From NCBI GenBank assembly GCA_041641305.1, contig JBEPYN010000002.1:466009-530008 (forward strand): a stretch of DNA of 64,000 nucleotides, read 5' to 3'. Below the pieces are notes generated by a model, which ran no database searches, had not been told where the DNA came from, and saw only the letters and a list, made by a program, of their open reading frames with translations. Made by a program: the position numbers and the translations under genes. Source of the DNA: Nitrososphaerota archaeon (GTDB taxonomy: Archaea; Thermoproteota; Nitrososphaeria_A; Caldarchaeales; Caldarchaeaceae). This document shows, one piece after another, positions 1,136 to 58,333 of the stretch; positions within the stretch are counted from its first letter, which is position 1; the number at the start of each line of letters is the position of its first letter.

Positions 1136-1240
1136 GGGCCCGTAGCTTAGCATGGATAGAGCGCTGGCCTCCGGAGCCAGAGGTCGTGAGCGGCGGTACG
1201 GAAGTGCCGCGCCGGCAGGGTTCAAATCCCACCGGGCCCG
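1136..1240 (+). tRNA. tRNA-Arg (anticodon CCG) with a 30-nt non-canonical intron in the T-arm
   Basis: 7-bp acceptor stem GGGCCCG/CGGGCCC with discriminator G. Anticodon stem CTGGC/GCCAG with loop CTCCGGA (U33, CCG, G37). After removing nt 1188-1217 the T-arm reads GTGGG-TTCAAAT-CCCAC with five Watson-Crick pairs. No CCA is encoded. A T-tract follows at about 1262. Confidence 0.85.
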
Positions 1241-45250: not shown

Positions 45251-46113
45251 GTTTCGCCGCCTCTGGTGTAACGATATGAAAGTGACAGTGCTTCCATGTA
45301 TGTTTCGGGTGTTCCTATGTCTAGGCGGAGCTCTTTTTCATCGAGTTCGACCGCGAGTATGTTGCCGCCTGTGTCTATGAGTTTCTGGATTGCGTCGGTT
45401 AGCTGCAGCTCTCCTCCGGCGTCTTCGGGTGTGGCGTCAAGTGCTTTCATGATGTATGGTGTGAAGATGTAGAAGGGCATGATGGCGAGGTTGGAGGGCG
45501 GTGTCCTGGGTTTCTCAAAAACCTTGGATACGCGGTGAAGTCCTCCGCCGACCGGCTGTGAAACAACCACTCCATACTGCTGTGGGTTCTCTACTTTCTG
45601 GACAAGGAGTGTTGCGTCGTACTCGTTCTTGGGCCCGGCTGCTATGAGGTTCTTGAGAAATTTGCCGTCCTTGCTGTAGATGTAGGTGTCTCCTGCGCAG
45701 AGAAGGAAGTTGTCGTCTCCGACGAAGTGGCGGGCTGTTTTCACGGCGTCTCCGAACCCGCGTGGAGCGGGCTGGCTCACCCAAACTATGACTGATTCCT
45801 CCAGCATCTTGTAGAATGTGATGAGCTCTGAGACGGTTGAGTATTTGCCCATCTTATCCATTTTATCGATAAAGTCCCAGTCGGGTGTGAAGTGGTCCTC
45901 GATGGCTCTTTTGCCTCTGCCCACGACGAAGCAGAACTGTCTGAACCCGAAGGTGTAGAGCTGTTCAAACAGGGCCTGTAGGAGGGGCTTGAGAGTGACC
46001 GCGCCGTTTCCAGCCCTTACGTAGATGGGAAGCATCTCCTTCGGCATCTCCTTGGTTGTAGGAAGCAGCCGGGTTCCAAGACCCGCCGCAGTTATCACAA
46101 CCTTCCTGACCAT
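45247..46113 (-). CDS. UTP--glucose-1-phosphate uridylyltransferase-like sugar nucleotidyltransferase
   Basis: ITAAGLGTRLLPTTKEMPKEMLPI signature (GalU/RmlA fold). Confidence 0.85.
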   Translation of the reverse strand: MVRKVVITAAGLGTRLLPTTKEMPKEMLPIYVRAGNGAVTLKPLLQALFEQLYTFGFRQFCFVVGRGKRAIEDHFTPDWDFIDKMDKMGKYSTVSELITFYKMLEESVIVWVSQPAPRGFGDAVKTARHFVGDDNFLLCAGDTYIYSKDGKFLKNLIAAGPKNEYDATLLVQKVENPQQYGVVVSQPVGGGLHRVSKVFEKPRTPPSNLAIMPFYIFTPYIMKALDATPEDAGGELQLTDAIQKLIDTGGNILAVELDEKELRLDIGTPETYMEALSLSYRYTRGGET

Positions 46114-46290
46114 CTTTGGTTCCCAATGGTAAAGTCTACTACATAACCATTAATGGTCAAGGGCGCCTCTAGTGATAAGATTCCCGTCAACTTATGATTG
46201 TTCGTTGGAAGCATTGAAAACAAAGTCGGAGCAAGACTCAGGGGATGGGAGAGAAAGACGATAAGCCAAAAGCTTATTTTTAAAAGCTAG

Positions 46291-46531
46291 TCATAGATGG
46301 TTCTCCTCATACCCACGTCTATGAATACTACGGATTGATTTTTTCGCTTCTATCATGTAGTCTCCACCCCTCCATCTGTAGTAGCCTGTTAGTTCTCCCC
46401 CTGAACCTTGTTCCGCTGTATGGTTTTTCCACAATCTCTAGTATCGCTTTCTCAATACGTTCCCTAGCCTCTTGAGGAAGTTTCCTATACTCTCTAAGAA
46501 ATGATTTCGTAAAAGGAGCCTTGTAGGTCAA
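46291..46531 (-). pseudogene. RelE/ParE-family toxin disrupted by a frameshift in a G5 homopolymer
   Basis: In-frame ORF 46328-46531 (TTG start) encodes TYKAPFTKSFLREYRKLPQEARERIEKAILEIVEKPYSGTRFRG, a typical RelE N-terminus. Removing one G from the GGGGG run (complement of 46397-46401) continues it as ELTGYYRWRGGDYMIEAKKSIRSIHRRGYEENHL*. This matches the RelE C-terminal YRxRxGDYR...HR core. Confidence 0.6.
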
Positions 46532-46538
46532 GGCAGTG

Positions 46539-46748
46539 CTACGCTTTCCTCAATAACTCTCGTATATCTTCTGGATTTTCAGCTGATATTGTCTCCCCAC
46601 GGTGGTACTCCTCTGTAGCCTTCTTTATGCGCTCCAACCCTTCGCTATCGGCCATCTCCTCCAGAGTAGCAAGTATTTCCTCAACTCTATCAATATGCTC
46701 CCGCAGCTCCTTCAGCAAATCACGAGGTAAAGCTACAGAACCGCCCAT
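46539..46748 (-). CDS. putative antitoxin (RelB/RHH-like) of the RelE pair
   Basis: 69 aa, acidic. Ends in EEYHRGETISAENPEDIRELL, a motif common in archaeal antitoxins. Separated from the toxin start by 7 nt on the same strand. Confidence 0.5.
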   Translation of the reverse strand: MGGSVALPRDLLKELREHIDRVEEILATLEEMADSEGLERIKKATEEYHRGETISAENPEDIRELLRKA

Positions 46749-47156
46749 GACCAGTCAAAAGACCAAGAACCTAATAAGGGTTATAACAGTGTCCGGGTGC
46801 AGAGACATGTTTACAAGCCGAGGCGCAATTATTGGCTGCATGGTTGTTGTGGCGTTGTTTTATGACTGTTTTGGAGTAATAAAAAGAAGTTGTTGGGTTC
46901 ATCTATCCTATGGGCGCTAGTCAAGCCTTGTCCACGTATCCTTGTTAAACATTGTGTATGATGAGACAGAATCCATTAGAAACATTACTGCAACACTTAC
47001 ACCGTCTTTCTTTCCACCTCATCAACATACACAAGCCATTTTACCCATCGCCTCCTCTATAAATGCAGGATTCGGCCGCCAGTATCTATCAACTTGGCTG
47101 AGCTACTCCAGCTGAGCACGCTGTTGCATGTTTTTAGATCTGGCCATGTGCTGGAC

Positions 47157-47801
47157 TCAGTTTTCTGTTCTGGTTATTATGGGGTATGGTGTTGCTTTTT
47201 TGTCTTTGAAGAGGTGGTTGATTAGGGATGCTGCGGCGAGGAAGTCGAGGGCTATCATTGAGAGTATCATGGCTGCGCCTGCTTCGTGGTGGAGCTGGGG
47301 GCTGAATATGACTGGTGGTGCGACGTAGAGGGGTTCGGTGACAAGTGTGAGGTAGAAGCCGTACCATCCCATGACTTTGCCGAATGCGATGGCTAATGCT
47401 TCTCTCCATGGTTTTGACAGGCCTTGTGCGGAGAAGTAGAGGATGATGCCTGTGATGAAGTAGGATATTCGTTTGAGCTGGTAGAGTATGGGGTTGTTGA
47501 GGTCGGCTGGACATATTCCGTATCCGAAGAATGAGTTGGCGGGTAGGTGCCAGTAGAATATGAGGGCCGCTGCTGTGCTGAAGCCGATGTAGCGGCTCCA
47601 ATGCTTGCCGAGGTTGATGCTGAGACGTGAGGATAAGAGATAGGCTGTGGAGTAGCCGACTGCTGCGATGAAGGTTGGCCAGACATCCATGTAGAAGAGT
47701 AGGTTGGTTAGCTCGAGGCCCCTCACCAGAGGGTAGTGGAAGACGGTGATGTAGGCGAAGGCTGCGATCACGGTGGCTGCGGCTGCTCCGCGGATGTCCA
47801 A
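47157..47801 (-). CDS. hypothetical polytopic membrane protein
   Basis: 214 aa with 6 predicted TM helices. Same strand and downstream of atpD. Confidence 0.6.
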   Translation of the reverse strand: MDIRGAAAATVIAAFAYITVFHYPLVRGLELTNLLFYMDVWPTFIAAVGYSTAYLLSSRLSINLGKHWSRYIGFSTAAALIFYWHLPANSFFGYGICPADLNNPILYQLKRISYFITGIILYFSAQGLSKPWREALAIAFGKVMGWYGFYLTLVTEPLYVAPPVIFSPQLHHEAGAAMILSMIALDFLAAASLINHLFKDKKATPYPIITRTEN

Positions 47802-56431: not shown

Positions 56432-57260
56432 CAAGCTTGAGCAGCTTCTCCGGATAAAGGCCGGACAAATCCTCCCTGTAAAAAACCACAATCTTTTCAT
56501 CATATCTCCTGTCCAGCTCCACCCCGGGGCCCAGCTCAACCCACACTCCTTCCTCGACAAATTTTCGGAATTTCTCCACCGCGTCCCCGCTCCTGAGAAT
56601 ATCTATGGGACAGTTTATGTACATGGGCCTCTTGTCGACGATGTGGCGGGTGGATTTGGGTGGCAGCCTGTAGGCATGTTTGGCGATTGAGACGACCTCC
56701 TCTTTCCTCAGAGGCCTCAGCAAGTATCCGAAGACGTGTCTGCCCCGTTTAACAACCTCTTCAACGTCACTGTCTCTGACATAGGTTATGCCAAGCGTTT
56801 TTAGTCTCTGCTCGAGCATGGAAAGTTTCCCGTAAACCTGCTCGGTGGCCAGAGTTTCTTGATGTTTGATTTTCAGGCTCTGTCCATTGCTCCAGATGAA
56901 CCAAGCGTCGTAGATGTCTCTTGACTCTGTGAAGCCCAGTTCGCTGCAATAATCCTTTAACTCATCGCTGGATATGTTCTTTGACGCAGCTCGCCCCCAT
57001 CCGGCGAGGACAACACGGGGAGACATGTAGTCGACTGTGTAGACGGGTATTTTTTCGAGGCCTAGAACCATAGCCGCCTCAACCCTGTGCGTGCCATCTA
57101 TAACCAGCCCGGTCTCAGCGTCGACTATCACGGGGTCTATGAAGCGGCCTTTTTTGGCGATGTCCTCGGCTATGCGGGAGACTGCTTGTGGAATGGATTG
57201 CTCATGTGGGTGAAGGTTTCCGGTGTCGGCGAGTGTGACCGTCCAAGGTTTTAGCCTCAA
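56400..57260 (-). CDS. ParB/Srx-fold protein (candidate ADP-dependent serine kinase SerK-like)
   Basis: N-terminal FIDPVIVDAETGLVIDGTHRVEAAMVLGLEKIPVYTV matches the ParB/sulfiredoxin nuclease-like fold (DGxHR). T. kodakarensis SerK belongs to this fold. A SerA-like dehydrogenase is adjacent. Confidence 0.55.
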   Translation of the reverse strand: MRLKPWTVTLADTGNLHPHEQSIPQAVSRIAEDIAKKGRFIDPVIVDAETGLVIDGTHRVEAAMVLGLEKIPVYTVDYMSPRVVLAGWGRAASKNISSDELKDYCSELGFTESRDIYDAWFIWSNGQSLKIKHQETLATEQVYGKLSMLEQRLKTLGITYVRDSDVEEVVKRGRHVFGYLLRPLRKEEVVSIAKHAYRLPPKSTRHIVDKRPMYINCPIDILRSGDAVEKFRKFVEEGVWVELGPGVELDRRYDEKIVVFYREDLSGLYPEKLLKLVKNSLKQTLR

Positions 57261-58333
57261 CCCAGTTCAGCCATCTCTTCAAACAGATGCCACGGCATGG
57301 TGGCGTAAACGTCTTCGAAGATGACGCGTGGGCTGGGCGGCGGTGTCTTCTCCGCTTCCTCGGTGGCGCGGCGCAGCTCGTCCTTGAAGCCGTCCACAAT
57401 TTTCTGCTCCTCCTCGGGGGACCACAACCTGTTGCGGGTAAGGTAGACCCGAAGCCGCTTCAACGGGTCAAATGCCCGCATTTGTTCAACCTCTTCTTCG
57501 GAGCGGTATTTTGAGGGGTCGTCAGCGGTTGTATGCGGCCCCATCCTGTATGTGACGGCCTCTATCAGAACAGCGCCCTCACCAGCTCGGGCCCTCTCCA
57601 CAAACTTTCTGCAGACAGTGTAGACAGCGAGGACATCGTTGCCGTCGACCCTTATTCCCGGAATTCCGTAGGCTTTTGCCTTTACCGCTATGTTGGGTGC
57701 GGCTGTCTGCATCTTGAAGGGAACGGAGATGGCCCACTGGTTGTTCTGAACAAAGAAGACCACGGGGGGCTTGAAGACACCGGCCCAGTTCACTGCCTCG
57801 TGGAAATCTCCTTTGGAGGTGGCGCCGTCGCCCAAGTAGACCAGAAACACCTCTTTCTCGCCGCGTTTCTTCGCCGCCATCGCCATGCCAACAGCCACGG
57901 GACACATGAGAGAAACCGCTCCCGCACCCACTACAATCCTATAGCGTCTGTCGCCATACAGCGTGATTTCATGCCCCTTCATGTGGTCGAGGTTTGTGGC
58001 AAACATTCTATGCATCAACGTTGTGAGCGGCGCTCCTCTGAGAAGACCCACAGTCAGCTCACGGTAGGTTGGAAACATCCAGTCTAAGTCGCTCAAGCTG
58101 TGAACGCTTCCCACGACAGAGGCCTCCTGTCCCTCGACCGGCGCGTAGCGTGATGCTTTCCCGAGCGGATGTATCTTGAGCATCCACTGGTCAAACGTTC
58201 TCAGGACAACCATGTCACGCATCATCTTACGCATCATCTCGTTGGAGAGGCCGGGGTCAGGCTCCCCGACCAGCTCCCCCTCAGGGCTCAAAACCCTGTA
58301 AAGCCCTAACTCCGCCTGACCGTCTCCAGACAT
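57257..58333 (-). CDS. TPP-dependent 2-oxoacid dehydrogenase E1 component alpha subunit
   Basis: TPP-binding motif GDGATSKGDFHEAVNWA...NNQWAIS. C-terminal YRMGPHTTADDPSKYR signature. No E1-beta gene is adjacent. Confidence 0.85.
   Translation of the reverse strand: MSGDGQAELGLYRVLSPEGELVGEPDPGLSNEMMRKMMRDMVVLRTFDQWMLKIHPLGKASRYAPVEGQEASVVGSVHSLSDLDWMFPTYRELTVGLLRGAPLTTLMHRMFATNLDHMKGHEITLYGDRRYRIVVGAGAVSLMCPVAVGMAMAAKKRGEKEVFLVYLGDGATSKGDFHEAVNWAGVFKPPVVFFVQNNQWAISVPFKMQTAAPNIAVKAKAYGIPGIRVDGNDVLAVYTVCRKFVERARAGEGAVLIEAVTYRMGPHTTADDPSKYRSEEEVEQMRAFDPLKRLRVYLTRNRLWSPEEEQKIVDGFKDELRRATEEAEKTPPPSPRVIFEDVYATMPWHLFEEMAELG

What the first reader, a model, noticed from the sequence alone, without database searches (positions are those of the whole stretch)
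46291..46748. RelE-type toxin-antitoxin pair with the toxin interrupted by a frameshift in a G5 tract
The toxin ORF starts 7 nt after the antitoxin stop. It encodes a textbook RelE N-terminus and then goes out of frame at a run of five G (complement of 46397-46401). The -1 frame restores the conserved RelE C-terminal core, YRWRGGDY...SIRSIHRRGY. The frameshift could be an inactivating mutation that leaves an orphan antitoxin. It could also be a homopolymer sequencing error, or a slippery site.
Basis: seen in the sequence. Interest (0 to 1): 0.5.

Follow-up and report, generated by a model that had tools for sequence, protein, structure and literature searches.

The report
Decayed RelE toxin beside intact antitoxin
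This is an ordinary toxin-antitoxin gene pair in a hot-spring archaeon (Candidatus Caldarchaeum) in which three separate mutations have destroyed the RelE-type toxin gene while the small antitoxin gene next to it remains whole.

Summary
The pair is real and lies on the minus strand. The antitoxin is 46748..46539 (69 aa). A 7-nt spacer follows, then a RelE-type toxin starting at TTG 46531. There are three lesions relative to an intact 84-aa homologue (Calditenuaceae archaeon HR02, 80% nt identity):
- +1 G in the G run.
- A 12-nt in-frame deletion of codons R-I-I-Y, which includes the equivalent of E. coli RelE catalytic R61.
- +1 A in the A6 run (46344..46339).

The true RelE C-terminus (VVFIDVGMRRTIYD*, stop 46289..46287) is in a third frame.

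Sequencing error is unlikely. Four contigs (three read here) from NCBI, JGI and Logan assemblies are identical. 232 other homopolymer runs in the window's long ORFs are in frame. A 12-nt deletion is not a homopolymer artefact.

Programmed frameshifting is unlikely because intact homologues read in one frame and the shift sites are not conserved.

The antitoxin keeps every invariant family residue and a conserved upstream TATA-like block.

Four related lineages carry independent toxin-killing mutations beside an intact antitoxin.

Verdict: a genuine toxin pseudogene with an orphaned antitoxin. This is a known kind of event and of low interest.

The parts
46766..46785 (-). Conserved upstream block TATAACCCTTATTAGGTTCT, a TATA-like promoter element and possible operator. 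Its TTATTA core is centred about 27 nt upstream of the antitoxin ATG, which suggests a leaderless or near-leaderless mRNA (inferred).
   Evidence: 19 of 20 bases match HR02 and L007, whereas the sequence further upstream is unrelated. blastn homology to the HR02 cassette begins at 46785. Promoter function is inferred, not shown.
46539..46748 (-). Intact antitoxin gene (69 aa, ATG start, TAG stop). It belongs to an unnamed all-helical archaeal family of about 69 aa.
   Evidence: ORF seen. 80% identical to the HR02 antitoxin. At least 400 homologues, none with a Pfam domain. It keeps all invariant family residues, including the EEILATLEE motif. AF2 model has pLDDT 87 and three helices. No Pfam, NCBIfam, PADLOC or PDB match. 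NCBI annotates it as a hypothetical protein, QXE96_03820.
46532..46538 (-). 7-nt spacer between the antitoxin stop and the toxin TTG start.
   Evidence: Read directly from the sequence. The same TTG start and a short spacer are present in HR02, L006 and L007.
46397..46531 (-). Toxin pseudogene, segment 1 (frame -1): codons 1-45, MTYKAPFTKSFLREYRKLPQEARERIEKAILEIVEKPYSGTRFRG.
   Evidence: tblastn with HR02 toxin residues 1-45: 73% identity, frame -1. PF15781/PF05016 N-terminal match.
46328..46531 (-). The 67-aa ORF as it is now encoded and annotated: 45 RelE-like residues followed by 22 out-of-frame residues.
   Evidence: NCBI MEM4494907.1 / QXE96_03815 is annotated 'hypothetical protein'. JGI calls it 'RelE of RelBE'.
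46397..46401 (-). Lesion 1: a G5 run that carries one extra G. In HR02 the run is G4; the other aligned intact homologues also lack the extra base here.
   Evidence: DNA alignments A2 and A5. Removing one G restores ...TRFRGELTGYY....
46345..46396 (-). Toxin pseudogene, segment 2 (frame -2): ELTGYYRWRGGDY / MIEA.
   Evidence: tblastn with HR02 residues 45-60: 81% identity, frame -2. See also alignment A5.
46356..46357 (-). Lesion 2: junction of a 12-nt in-frame deletion. It removes codons Arg-Ile-Ile-Tyr of the GDYRIIY strand, which includes the equivalent of E. coli RelE R61.
   Evidence: Alignments. HMMER alignment of the HR02 toxin to E. coli RelE (4v7k, 4fxe) pairs YRIIY with Y60-R61-L62-V63-Y64. 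After repair of both frameshifts, PF05016 still drops from 40.3 bits (HR02) to 21.7 bits.
46339..46344 (-). Lesion 3: an A6 run that carries one extra A, causing the second frameshift.
   Evidence: Repair model. Deleting one A gives a gap-free alignment...MIEAKNQSVVFIDVGMRRTIYD. An alternative reading is a single 11-nt deletion, but it needs many more mismatches.
46287..46343 (-). Toxin pseudogene, segment 3 (frame -3): KNQSVVFIDVGMRRTIYD plus the ancestral TAG stop at 46289..46287.
   Evidence: tblastn with HR02 residues 67-84: 72% identity, frame -3. Three-frame translation. Homology to the HR02 cassette ends right after this stop.

Best explanation
This is a small, mobile type II toxin-antitoxin cassette of about 500 bp, made of a promoter, a 69-aa antitoxin and an 84-aa RelE-type mRNA-interferase toxin. 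It sits between housekeeping genes of a Candidatus Caldarchaeum genome.

The toxin gene is a true pseudogene. It has two single-base insertions in short homopolymers (G4 to G5, and A5 to A6) and a 12-nt deletion that removes the core strand carrying the equivalent of RelE R61. What can still be translated is a 67-aa peptide: 45 RelE residues followed by 22 residues of nonsense. It has no beta-sheet and none of the catalytic residues that lie beyond residue 45, so it should not be toxic.

The antitoxin gene and its TATA-like upstream block are undamaged. The antitoxin is probably still made as an orphan.

Shown here: the lesions, the family assignment, the intact antitoxin, and the reproducibility of the sequence across assemblies.

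Inferred: that the peptide is not toxic, that the antitoxin is expressed, and any present role for it. Possible roles are neutralising related RelE toxins that arrive on mobile elements (anti-addiction), or acting as a regulator.
For: Family:
- The intact HR02 homologue (71% aa identity) scores 40.3 bits on PF05016.
- It matches solved RelE toxins by sequence: 9g12, Rv2866 (3g5o), E. coli RelE (4v7k/4fxe), P. horikoshii 1wmi and M. jannaschii 3bpq.

Lesions:
- tblastn finds the toxin split over frames -1, -2 and -3, with residues 61-66 missing.
- Nucleotide alignments to five single-frame homologues locate the extra G, the 12-nt gap and the extra A.
- The deleted RIIY aligns with E. coli RelE Y60-R61-L62-V63-Y64.

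The sequence is real:
- It is 100% identical to JGI 3300038392 Ga0394092_07458, Logan SRR27869038_2744 and NCBI GCA_038888475.1 JAWAIM010000010.1. The index also lists the same ORF on a 702,665-nt NCBI contig, which was not read.
- Long ORFs cover 90% of the window, and they contain 232 in-frame homopolymer runs of 5 nt or more.

Antitoxin:
- It is full length, 80% identical to the HR02 partner, and keeps all invariant family residues.
- dN/dS against HR02 is 0.15, and it has no excess of lineage-specific replacements (6, against 5 and 9 in relatives).
- The toxin remnant has 11 such replacements, against 6 and 5 in relatives, including L6P and V55G.
- The upstream block is conserved.
- The family is regularly followed within 5-8 nt by an 84-aa PF05016 gene.

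Recurrence: independent toxin-killing mutations lie beside an intact antitoxin in four related lineages.
- L009 and L011 carry a 1-nt deletion, while L010 is intact.
- L024-L026 carry a TAC to TAG nonsense mutation.
- L028 carries a 1-nt deletion.
- L020, L022 and L023 have lost the 3' part of the toxin, while L021 is intact.

Orphan antitoxins and degrading TA pairs are common in bacteria (PMC7192599).
Against: - No reads were available, so allele frequencies at the three lesions are unknown.
- The four identical contigs probably come from one sample or population. They exclude assembler artefacts, but they are not independent populations.
- Pairwise dN/dS of the toxin remnant is still low (0.22), so inactivation is recent. 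With only 210 nt, an unselected antitoxin would still be intact with probability about 0.08-0.19 under a crude Poisson estimate. Continued selection on this particular antitoxin is therefore not demonstrated.
- The related loci were found through called antitoxin proteins, so antitoxin intactness in those loci is partly ascertained.
- The antitoxin role rests on conserved gene pairing only. There is no match to any characterised antitoxin family or structure.
Confidence: 0.9

Rival explanations
1. The whole cassette is a recently dead relic. The antitoxin has no remaining function and is intact only because too little time has passed for a 210-nt gene to be hit.
For: The toxin remnant still has low dN/dS against HR02 (0.22), which implies recent inactivation. 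A crude Poisson estimate gives a probability of 0.08-0.19 that a neutral 210-nt gene escapes disruption, given 2-3 lesions in 255 nt. Antitoxin intactness in the related loci is biased by the way they were found.
Against: The antitoxin shows no excess of lineage-specific replacements, whereas the toxin shows about twice as many as its nearest relatives. All invariant family residues and the upstream block are retained. In the P0077 lineage, the four variable sites in the antitoxin are all synonymous across loci whose toxins were lost. All of these numbers are small.
Confidence: 0.35
2. The toxin is intact in the organism, and the frameshifts are homopolymer sequencing or assembly errors.
For: Two of the three lesions lie in homopolymer runs (G5, A6), the classic sites of indel errors.
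Against: The same sequence appears in three separately produced assemblies (JGI, Logan, NCBI MAG) at 100% identity over 3-11 kb. 232 other runs of 5 nt or more inside 56 long ORFs of the same window are all in frame. The 12-nt deletion is not a homopolymer event, and it removes a conserved strand on its own. The remnant also carries extra non-conservative replacements.
Confidence: 0.04
3. Programmed recoding: ribosomal or transcriptional slippage at the G5 and A6 runs yields a low, regulated amount of full-length toxin.
For: Both shifts are in the same direction (+1) and both sit at short homopolymers.
Against: - HR02, L006, L007, L010, L021 and L014-L019 all encode the toxin in one frame.
- The shift sites are not conserved.
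- Other broken relatives are broken at different places and by different means, including a nonsense codon.
- Two successive shifts would be needed, and the product would still lack the RIIY strand with the R61 equivalent.
- From general knowledge, runs of 5-6 nt are too short for efficient transcriptional slippage.
Confidence: 0.01

Closest known systems
RelBE type II toxin-antitoxin systems: E. coli RelBE (PDB 4fxe, 4v7k) and M. tuberculosis Rv2865/Rv2866 (3g5o)
   Same: The toxin lineage matches these RelE proteins by sequence (E about 1e-6 for the intact HR02 homologue). It shares the fold-defining motifs and the equivalents of R61, R81 and Y87. The operon order is antitoxin first with the toxin a few nucleotides downstream.
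   Different: The window copy is a pseudogene with three lesions. The antitoxin is not RelB-, Phd/YefM- or clearly RHH-like by sequence, giving only sub-threshold RHH hits (E 0.04-0.08). The host is an archaeon.
Archaeal RelBE: Pyrococcus horikoshii aRelE-aRelB (PDB 1wmi) and Methanocaldococcus jannaschii RelBE3 (3bpq)
   Same: These are archaeal RelE toxins of similar size. The intact homologue matches them weakly by sequence (E about 4e-3). They also have a small helical antitoxin encoded upstream.
   Different: Sequence search and Foldseek with the AF2 model found no similarity between the window's antitoxin and any solved chain, aRelB and RelB3 included. The toxin here is decayed.
Orphan antitoxins and degrading TA loci described in bacterial populations (e.g. 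Klebsiella pneumoniae, PMC7192599)
   Same: An intact antitoxin sits beside a toxin that is missing or non-functional. Independent cases recur in related lineages, and the proposed roles are anti-addiction or regulation.
   Different: The case here is in thermophilic or uncultured archaea, with an antitoxin family that has no Pfam or NCBIfam model.

Membership tests
RelE/ParE toxin superfamily (Pfam PF05016), RelE-type mRNA interferase | Full-length match to the family HMM above the curated cut-off | tested here: inconclusive
   The encoded 67-aa ORF has no PF05016 hit, and its PF15781 score of 21 bits is below the cut-off of 28. Three-frame reconstructions score 23.8 bits (81 aa) and 21.7 bits (80 aa), against a cut-off of 23. 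The intact HR02 homologue scores 40.3 bits. The remnant therefore descends from the family, but the present gene product does not qualify.
RelE/ParE toxin superfamily (Pfam PF05016), RelE-type mRNA interferase | Uninterrupted ORF of about 84-95 aa | tested here: not met
   Three reading frames are needed and 12 nt are missing.
RelE/ParE toxin superfamily (Pfam PF05016), RelE-type mRNA interferase | Catalytic or basic residues equivalent to E. coli RelE K52/K54, R61, R81 and Y87 (residue roles taken from published RelE work and recalled from memory) | tested here: not met
   HR02 has R52, K54, R59 (equivalent to R61), R79 and Y83, aligned to E. coli RelE. In the window the R61 equivalent is deleted, and the remaining residues lie out of frame with the start codon.
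RelE/ParE toxin superfamily (Pfam PF05016), RelE-type mRNA interferase | Ribosome-dependent mRNA cleavage, or toxicity on expression | not testable with these tools
   This needs expression assays.
Functional type II toxin-antitoxin module | Small antitoxin gene directly upstream of the toxin gene, on the same strand, separated by a few nucleotides or overlapping | tested here: met
   The spacer is 7 nt. The same layout is seen in HR02, L007 and L014-L019.
Functional type II toxin-antitoxin module | Both partners intact | tested here: not met
   The antitoxin is intact, but the toxin has three lesions.
Characterised antitoxin families (RelB, RHH/CopG, Phd/YefM, DinJ, aRelB) | Significant sequence or fold match | tested here: not met
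   The Pfam RHH_1 and RHH_5 hits have E 0.04-0.08 and fall below cut-off. NCBIfam gives none, PADLOC none and PDB sequence search none. The best Foldseek hit is DinJ at E = 4.9. The antitoxin role is inferred from conserved pairing with PF05016 toxins.
Programmed ribosomal frameshift gene | Shift site and two-frame architecture conserved among homologues | tested here: not met
   The intact homologues read in a single frame. Broken ones are broken at different sites.

The most novel reading that the evidence does not exclude
In this unnamed 69-aa archaeal antitoxin family, the RelE toxin partner has been independently destroyed in at least five lineages sampled here. The means were frameshifts, a nonsense codon, a deletion and loss of the 3' end. 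In each case the antitoxin ORF remained intact. This could mean that the antitoxin has a selected role independent of its own toxin. Examples would be immunity against RelE toxins carried by invading plasmids or viruses (anti-addiction), or a regulatory role, making orphan antitoxins a widespread functional class in archaea.
Probability: 0.3. Interest if true: 0.45.

Novelty: new member of a known kind. Interest (0 to 1): 0.2.

Why it matters
The main value is for annotation.
- Both genes are labelled 'hypothetical protein' in the NCBI MAG. The 67-aa ORF should be marked as a RelE-family pseudogene, and the 69-aa gene as a putative antitoxin.
- The antitoxin belongs to a large archaeal family (at least 400 homologues) that has no Pfam or NCBIfam model. 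It is consistently paired with PF05016 toxins, so it merits a family definition.
- The repeated, independent toxin inactivations in relatives add an archaeal example to the known pattern of TA decay and orphan antitoxins.
- Nothing here challenges current understanding.

Tried and rejected
- Both metagenome-contig scans found nothing. In the toxin scan, the first pattern required an ATG start whereas the gene uses TTG, and the second spanned the frameshift, so neither could match the window's copy. The antitoxin scan also found nothing, so the sample is evidently not in that collection.
- The genome-contig scan returned only HR02. No close relative with an intact toxin at the same chromosomal site could be found.
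- The antitoxin gave no significant hit in Pfam, NCBIfam, PADLOC, PDB sequence search, or Foldseek with the AF2 model.
- Rfam and tRNA scans found nothing in or near the locus.
- Sigma-70 promoter and terminator scans were at background level and do not apply to an archaeon.
- Local repeat search found no flanking direct or inverted repeats that would mark an insertion.
- A single 11-nt deletion, as MAFFT drew it, was rejected in favour of a 12-nt deletion plus one extra A. The latter gives a near-perfect nucleotide and protein alignment.
- tblastn found no paralogue of the toxin or antitoxin elsewhere in the window.

Full report
**1. What is in the sequence**

All features are on the minus strand.

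- An ATG-initiated ORF of 69 aa runs 46748..46539 and ends in TAG.
- Seven nucleotides later a TTG at 46531 opens an ORF whose first 45 codons read MTYKAPFTKSFLREYRKLPQEARERIEKAILEIVEKPYSGTRFRG.
- A run of five G lies at 46401..46397.

A three-frame translation and tblastn with an intact homologue show that the toxin is spread over three frames, not two:

| Toxin residues | Frame | Window coordinates |
|---|---|---|
| 1-45 | -1 | 46531-46397 |
| 45-60 | -2 | 46398-46351 |
| 67-84 | -3 | 46343-46290, stop 46289..46287 |

Residues 61-66 have no counterpart. The combined E-value is 1.8e-23.

The real conserved C-terminus, NQSVVFIDVGMRRTIYD*, is in frame -3.

**2. Family**

- A database search with the three-frame reconstruction found an 84-aa protein annotated 'Toxin RelE' from Candidatus Calditenuaceae archaeon HR02 (71% identity). 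It also found two further intact 84-aa relatives and the window's own 67-aa truncated ORF from a JGI metagenome.
- The HR02 protein scores 40.3 bits on PF05016, against a cut-off of 23.
- By sequence it matches solved RelE-type mRNA interferases: 9g12, Rv2866 (3g5o), E. coli RelE (4v7k, 4fxe), P. horikoshii 1wmi and M. jannaschii 3bpq. It matches no ParE gyrase poison.
- The encoded 67-aa ORF does not reach any Pfam cut-off.
The three-frame products score 23.8 and 21.7 bits.

**3. The lesions**

The cassette is 80% identical at the nucleotide level to the HR02 cassette over 512 nt. Alignments to HR02 and to four other single-frame homologues show three changes:

- **One extra base in the G run.** HR02 has G4 and the window has G5.
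- **A gap of 11-12 nt after GACTAC.**
- **One extra A.** This holds if the gap is read as 12 nt; the window's A6 run at 46344..46339 then carries the extra base.

The model '12-nt deletion plus one A' gives a gap-free protein alignment: GDY----MIEAKNQSVVFIDVGMRRTIYD against GDYRIIYMIDEKNRHVVFVDVGIRRAIYD. I prefer it to a single 11-nt deletion, which needs many more mismatches.

The four missing codons are Arg-Ile-Ile-Tyr. In the HMMER alignment to E. coli RelE they pair with Y60-R61-L62-V63-Y64. R61 is one of the residues implicated in RelE catalysis; that role is published knowledge recalled from memory.

So even if both frameshifts were bypassed, the protein would lack a core strand and a catalytic arginine. 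This is reflected in a loss of about 18 bits on PF05016.

**4. Real mutation or error?**

The window comes from a Candidatus Caldarchaeum sp. MAG, GCA_038888475.1. The truncated toxin is QXE96_03815 and the antitoxin is QXE96_03820. Both are annotated 'hypothetical'.

- The same DNA, 100% identical over 3.2-11.3 kb, is present in the NCBI MAG contig, a JGI metagenome contig (3300038392) and a 55-kb Logan assembly of SRR27869038.
- The same ORF is also listed on a 702,665-nt NCBI contig, which was not read.
- These probably derive from one population. They rule out assembler artefacts but are not independent populations.
- ORFs of at least 90 aa cover 90% of the window, and there is no sign of broken genes.
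- 232 homopolymer runs of 5 nt or more inside 56 long ORFs are all in frame.
- A 12-nt deletion is not a homopolymer error.

I put sequencing error at about 4%.

**5. Programmed frameshift?**

HR02, L006, L007, L010, L021 and six Bathyarchaeia loci encode the toxin in a single frame. The shift sites are not conserved. I put programmed recoding at about 1%.

**6. The antitoxin**

- It is full length and 80% identical to the HR02 partner.
- It belongs to a family of at least 400 proteins, nearly all of 69 aa, from archaea (Bathyarchaeia, Hydrothermarchaeota and others). None has a Pfam domain or a name.
- The window's copy keeps every invariant residue, including the EEILATLEE motif.
- An AlphaFold2 model (pLDDT 87) has three helices after an extended N-terminus.
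- Foldseek against the PDB finds nothing significant. The best hit is DinJ at E = 4.9.
- Pfam gives only sub-threshold RHH hits at residues 4-21.

Its antitoxin role therefore rests on conserved pairing. In HR02, L007 and six Bathyarchaeia loci it is followed within 5-8 nt by an 84-aa PF05016 gene.

Upstream, a 20-nt block TATAACCCTTATTAGGTTCT (46785..46766) is conserved with HR02 and L007, while everything further upstream is unrelated. Its TTATTA core is centred about 27 nt before the ATG, as expected for an archaeal TATA box driving a leaderless mRNA. This is an inference.

Homology to the HR02 cassette stops at 46785 and immediately after the toxin stop at 46287. The HR02 copy lies in a different neighbourhood, beside IS110 fragments. 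The unit is therefore a mobile cassette of about 500 bp. In the window it sits in a low-GC gap (0.44-0.46, against 0.52-0.54 in the flanks) between a membrane-protein gene and a sugar-nucleotide/glycosyltransferase cluster.

**7. Selection**

| Measure | Toxin remnant | Antitoxin |
|---|---|---|
| Nei-Gojobori dN/dS against HR02 | 0.22 | 0.15 |
| Amino-acid states unique to the window | 11 | 6 |
| Unique states in HR02 / L007 | 6 / 5 | 5 / 9 |

- The toxin's unique replacements include L6P and V55G at otherwise conserved positions. This fits a recent relaxation of constraint on the toxin only.
- The numbers are small, however. A neutral 210-nt gene would escape disruption with a probability of about 0.08-0.19.
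- Continued function of this antitoxin is plausible but not shown. I give the 'fully dead relic' rival about 0.35 for that sub-question.

**8. Relatives**

Sampling antitoxin homologues showed that toxin inactivation recurs:

| Lineage | Loci | State of the toxin |
|---|---|---|
| P0007 | L009, L011 (two samples, differing by SNPs) | 1-nt deletion |
| P0007 | L010 | intact |
| P0011 | L024-L026 (three samples) | TAC to TAG nonsense codon at the Tyr of GKYRIIY |
| P0012 | L028 | 1-nt deletion in TTAACAGG |
| P0077 | L020, L022, L023 | toxin homology lost after about residue 37 |
| P0077 | L021 | intact |

In the P0077 lineage the antitoxin differs only at synonymous sites.

With the window, that makes five independent inactivations among the ten lineages examined. 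The loci were found through called antitoxin proteins, so the intactness of the antitoxins is partly ascertained. The high frequency of dead toxins is not subject to that bias.

This matches what is known from bacteria, where orphan antitoxins and degrading TA pairs are abundant and anti-addiction or regulatory roles have been proposed (PMC7192599).

**9. Verdict**

- The locus is a new member of a known kind: a decayed RelE-type type II TA cassette with an orphan antitoxin.
- Its practical value is for annotation: a pseudogene call, and the definition of an unnamed archaeal antitoxin family.
- Interest is 0.2.

Noticed in passing
window 48709-49050 and 52021-53172: A 52-aa ORF at 48892-49050 (+), MRFYCDVHRKRDDTGYRVTYTTDGEDFRHVDSP..., is a truncated duplicate of the N-terminus of the 282-aa ORF at 52324-53172 (+). 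About 300 nt of upstream DNA is duplicated with it (48709-48815 against 52021-52127 at 83%, and 48879-49006 against 52311-52438 at 86%). The 282-aa protein has no Pfam match. It may be a partial duplication or the remnant of a mobile element beside the prolyl-tRNA synthetase gene.
   Followed up: partly
window 1136-1240 (+) and 58243-58327 (-): Rfam finds a 105-nt tRNA at 1136-1240, probably an intron-containing archaeal tRNA. ARAGORN misses it and instead calls a tRNA-Gln at 58243-58327, inside a long ORF (57257-58333), which is probably a false positive.
   Followed up: no
L020:1410-1560, L022:556-706, L023:556-706 (with L021:591-741 as the intact reference): In three loci that carry the identical antitoxin P0077, the toxin gene loses homology within about 5 nt of the same point (after GTGAATC, about codon 37). 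The downstream sequence differs in each locus. This could be a recombination or insertion hotspot inside the toxin gene, or metagenome assembly chimeras. L020 is on a 165-kb contig and is followed by a PemK-type toxin pair.
   Followed up: partly
L024:~845-900, L025, L026, L028:~1480-1512: The TA cassettes of the P0011 and P0012 lineages end a few nucleotides before what looks like the 3' end of a tRNA gene on the opposite strand (GGGGGCGCCCGGATTTGAACCGGGGG), and they lie next to a ZnuA gene. This placement is consistent with insertion at a tRNA-associated site.
   Followed up: no
window 46000-47250: A GC dip to 0.44-0.46, against 0.52-0.54 in the flanks, spans the TA cassette and about 400 nt of non-coding DNA upstream of it (46786-47156). 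That upstream DNA has no similarity to the HR02 context. No flanking repeats were found.
   Followed up: partly
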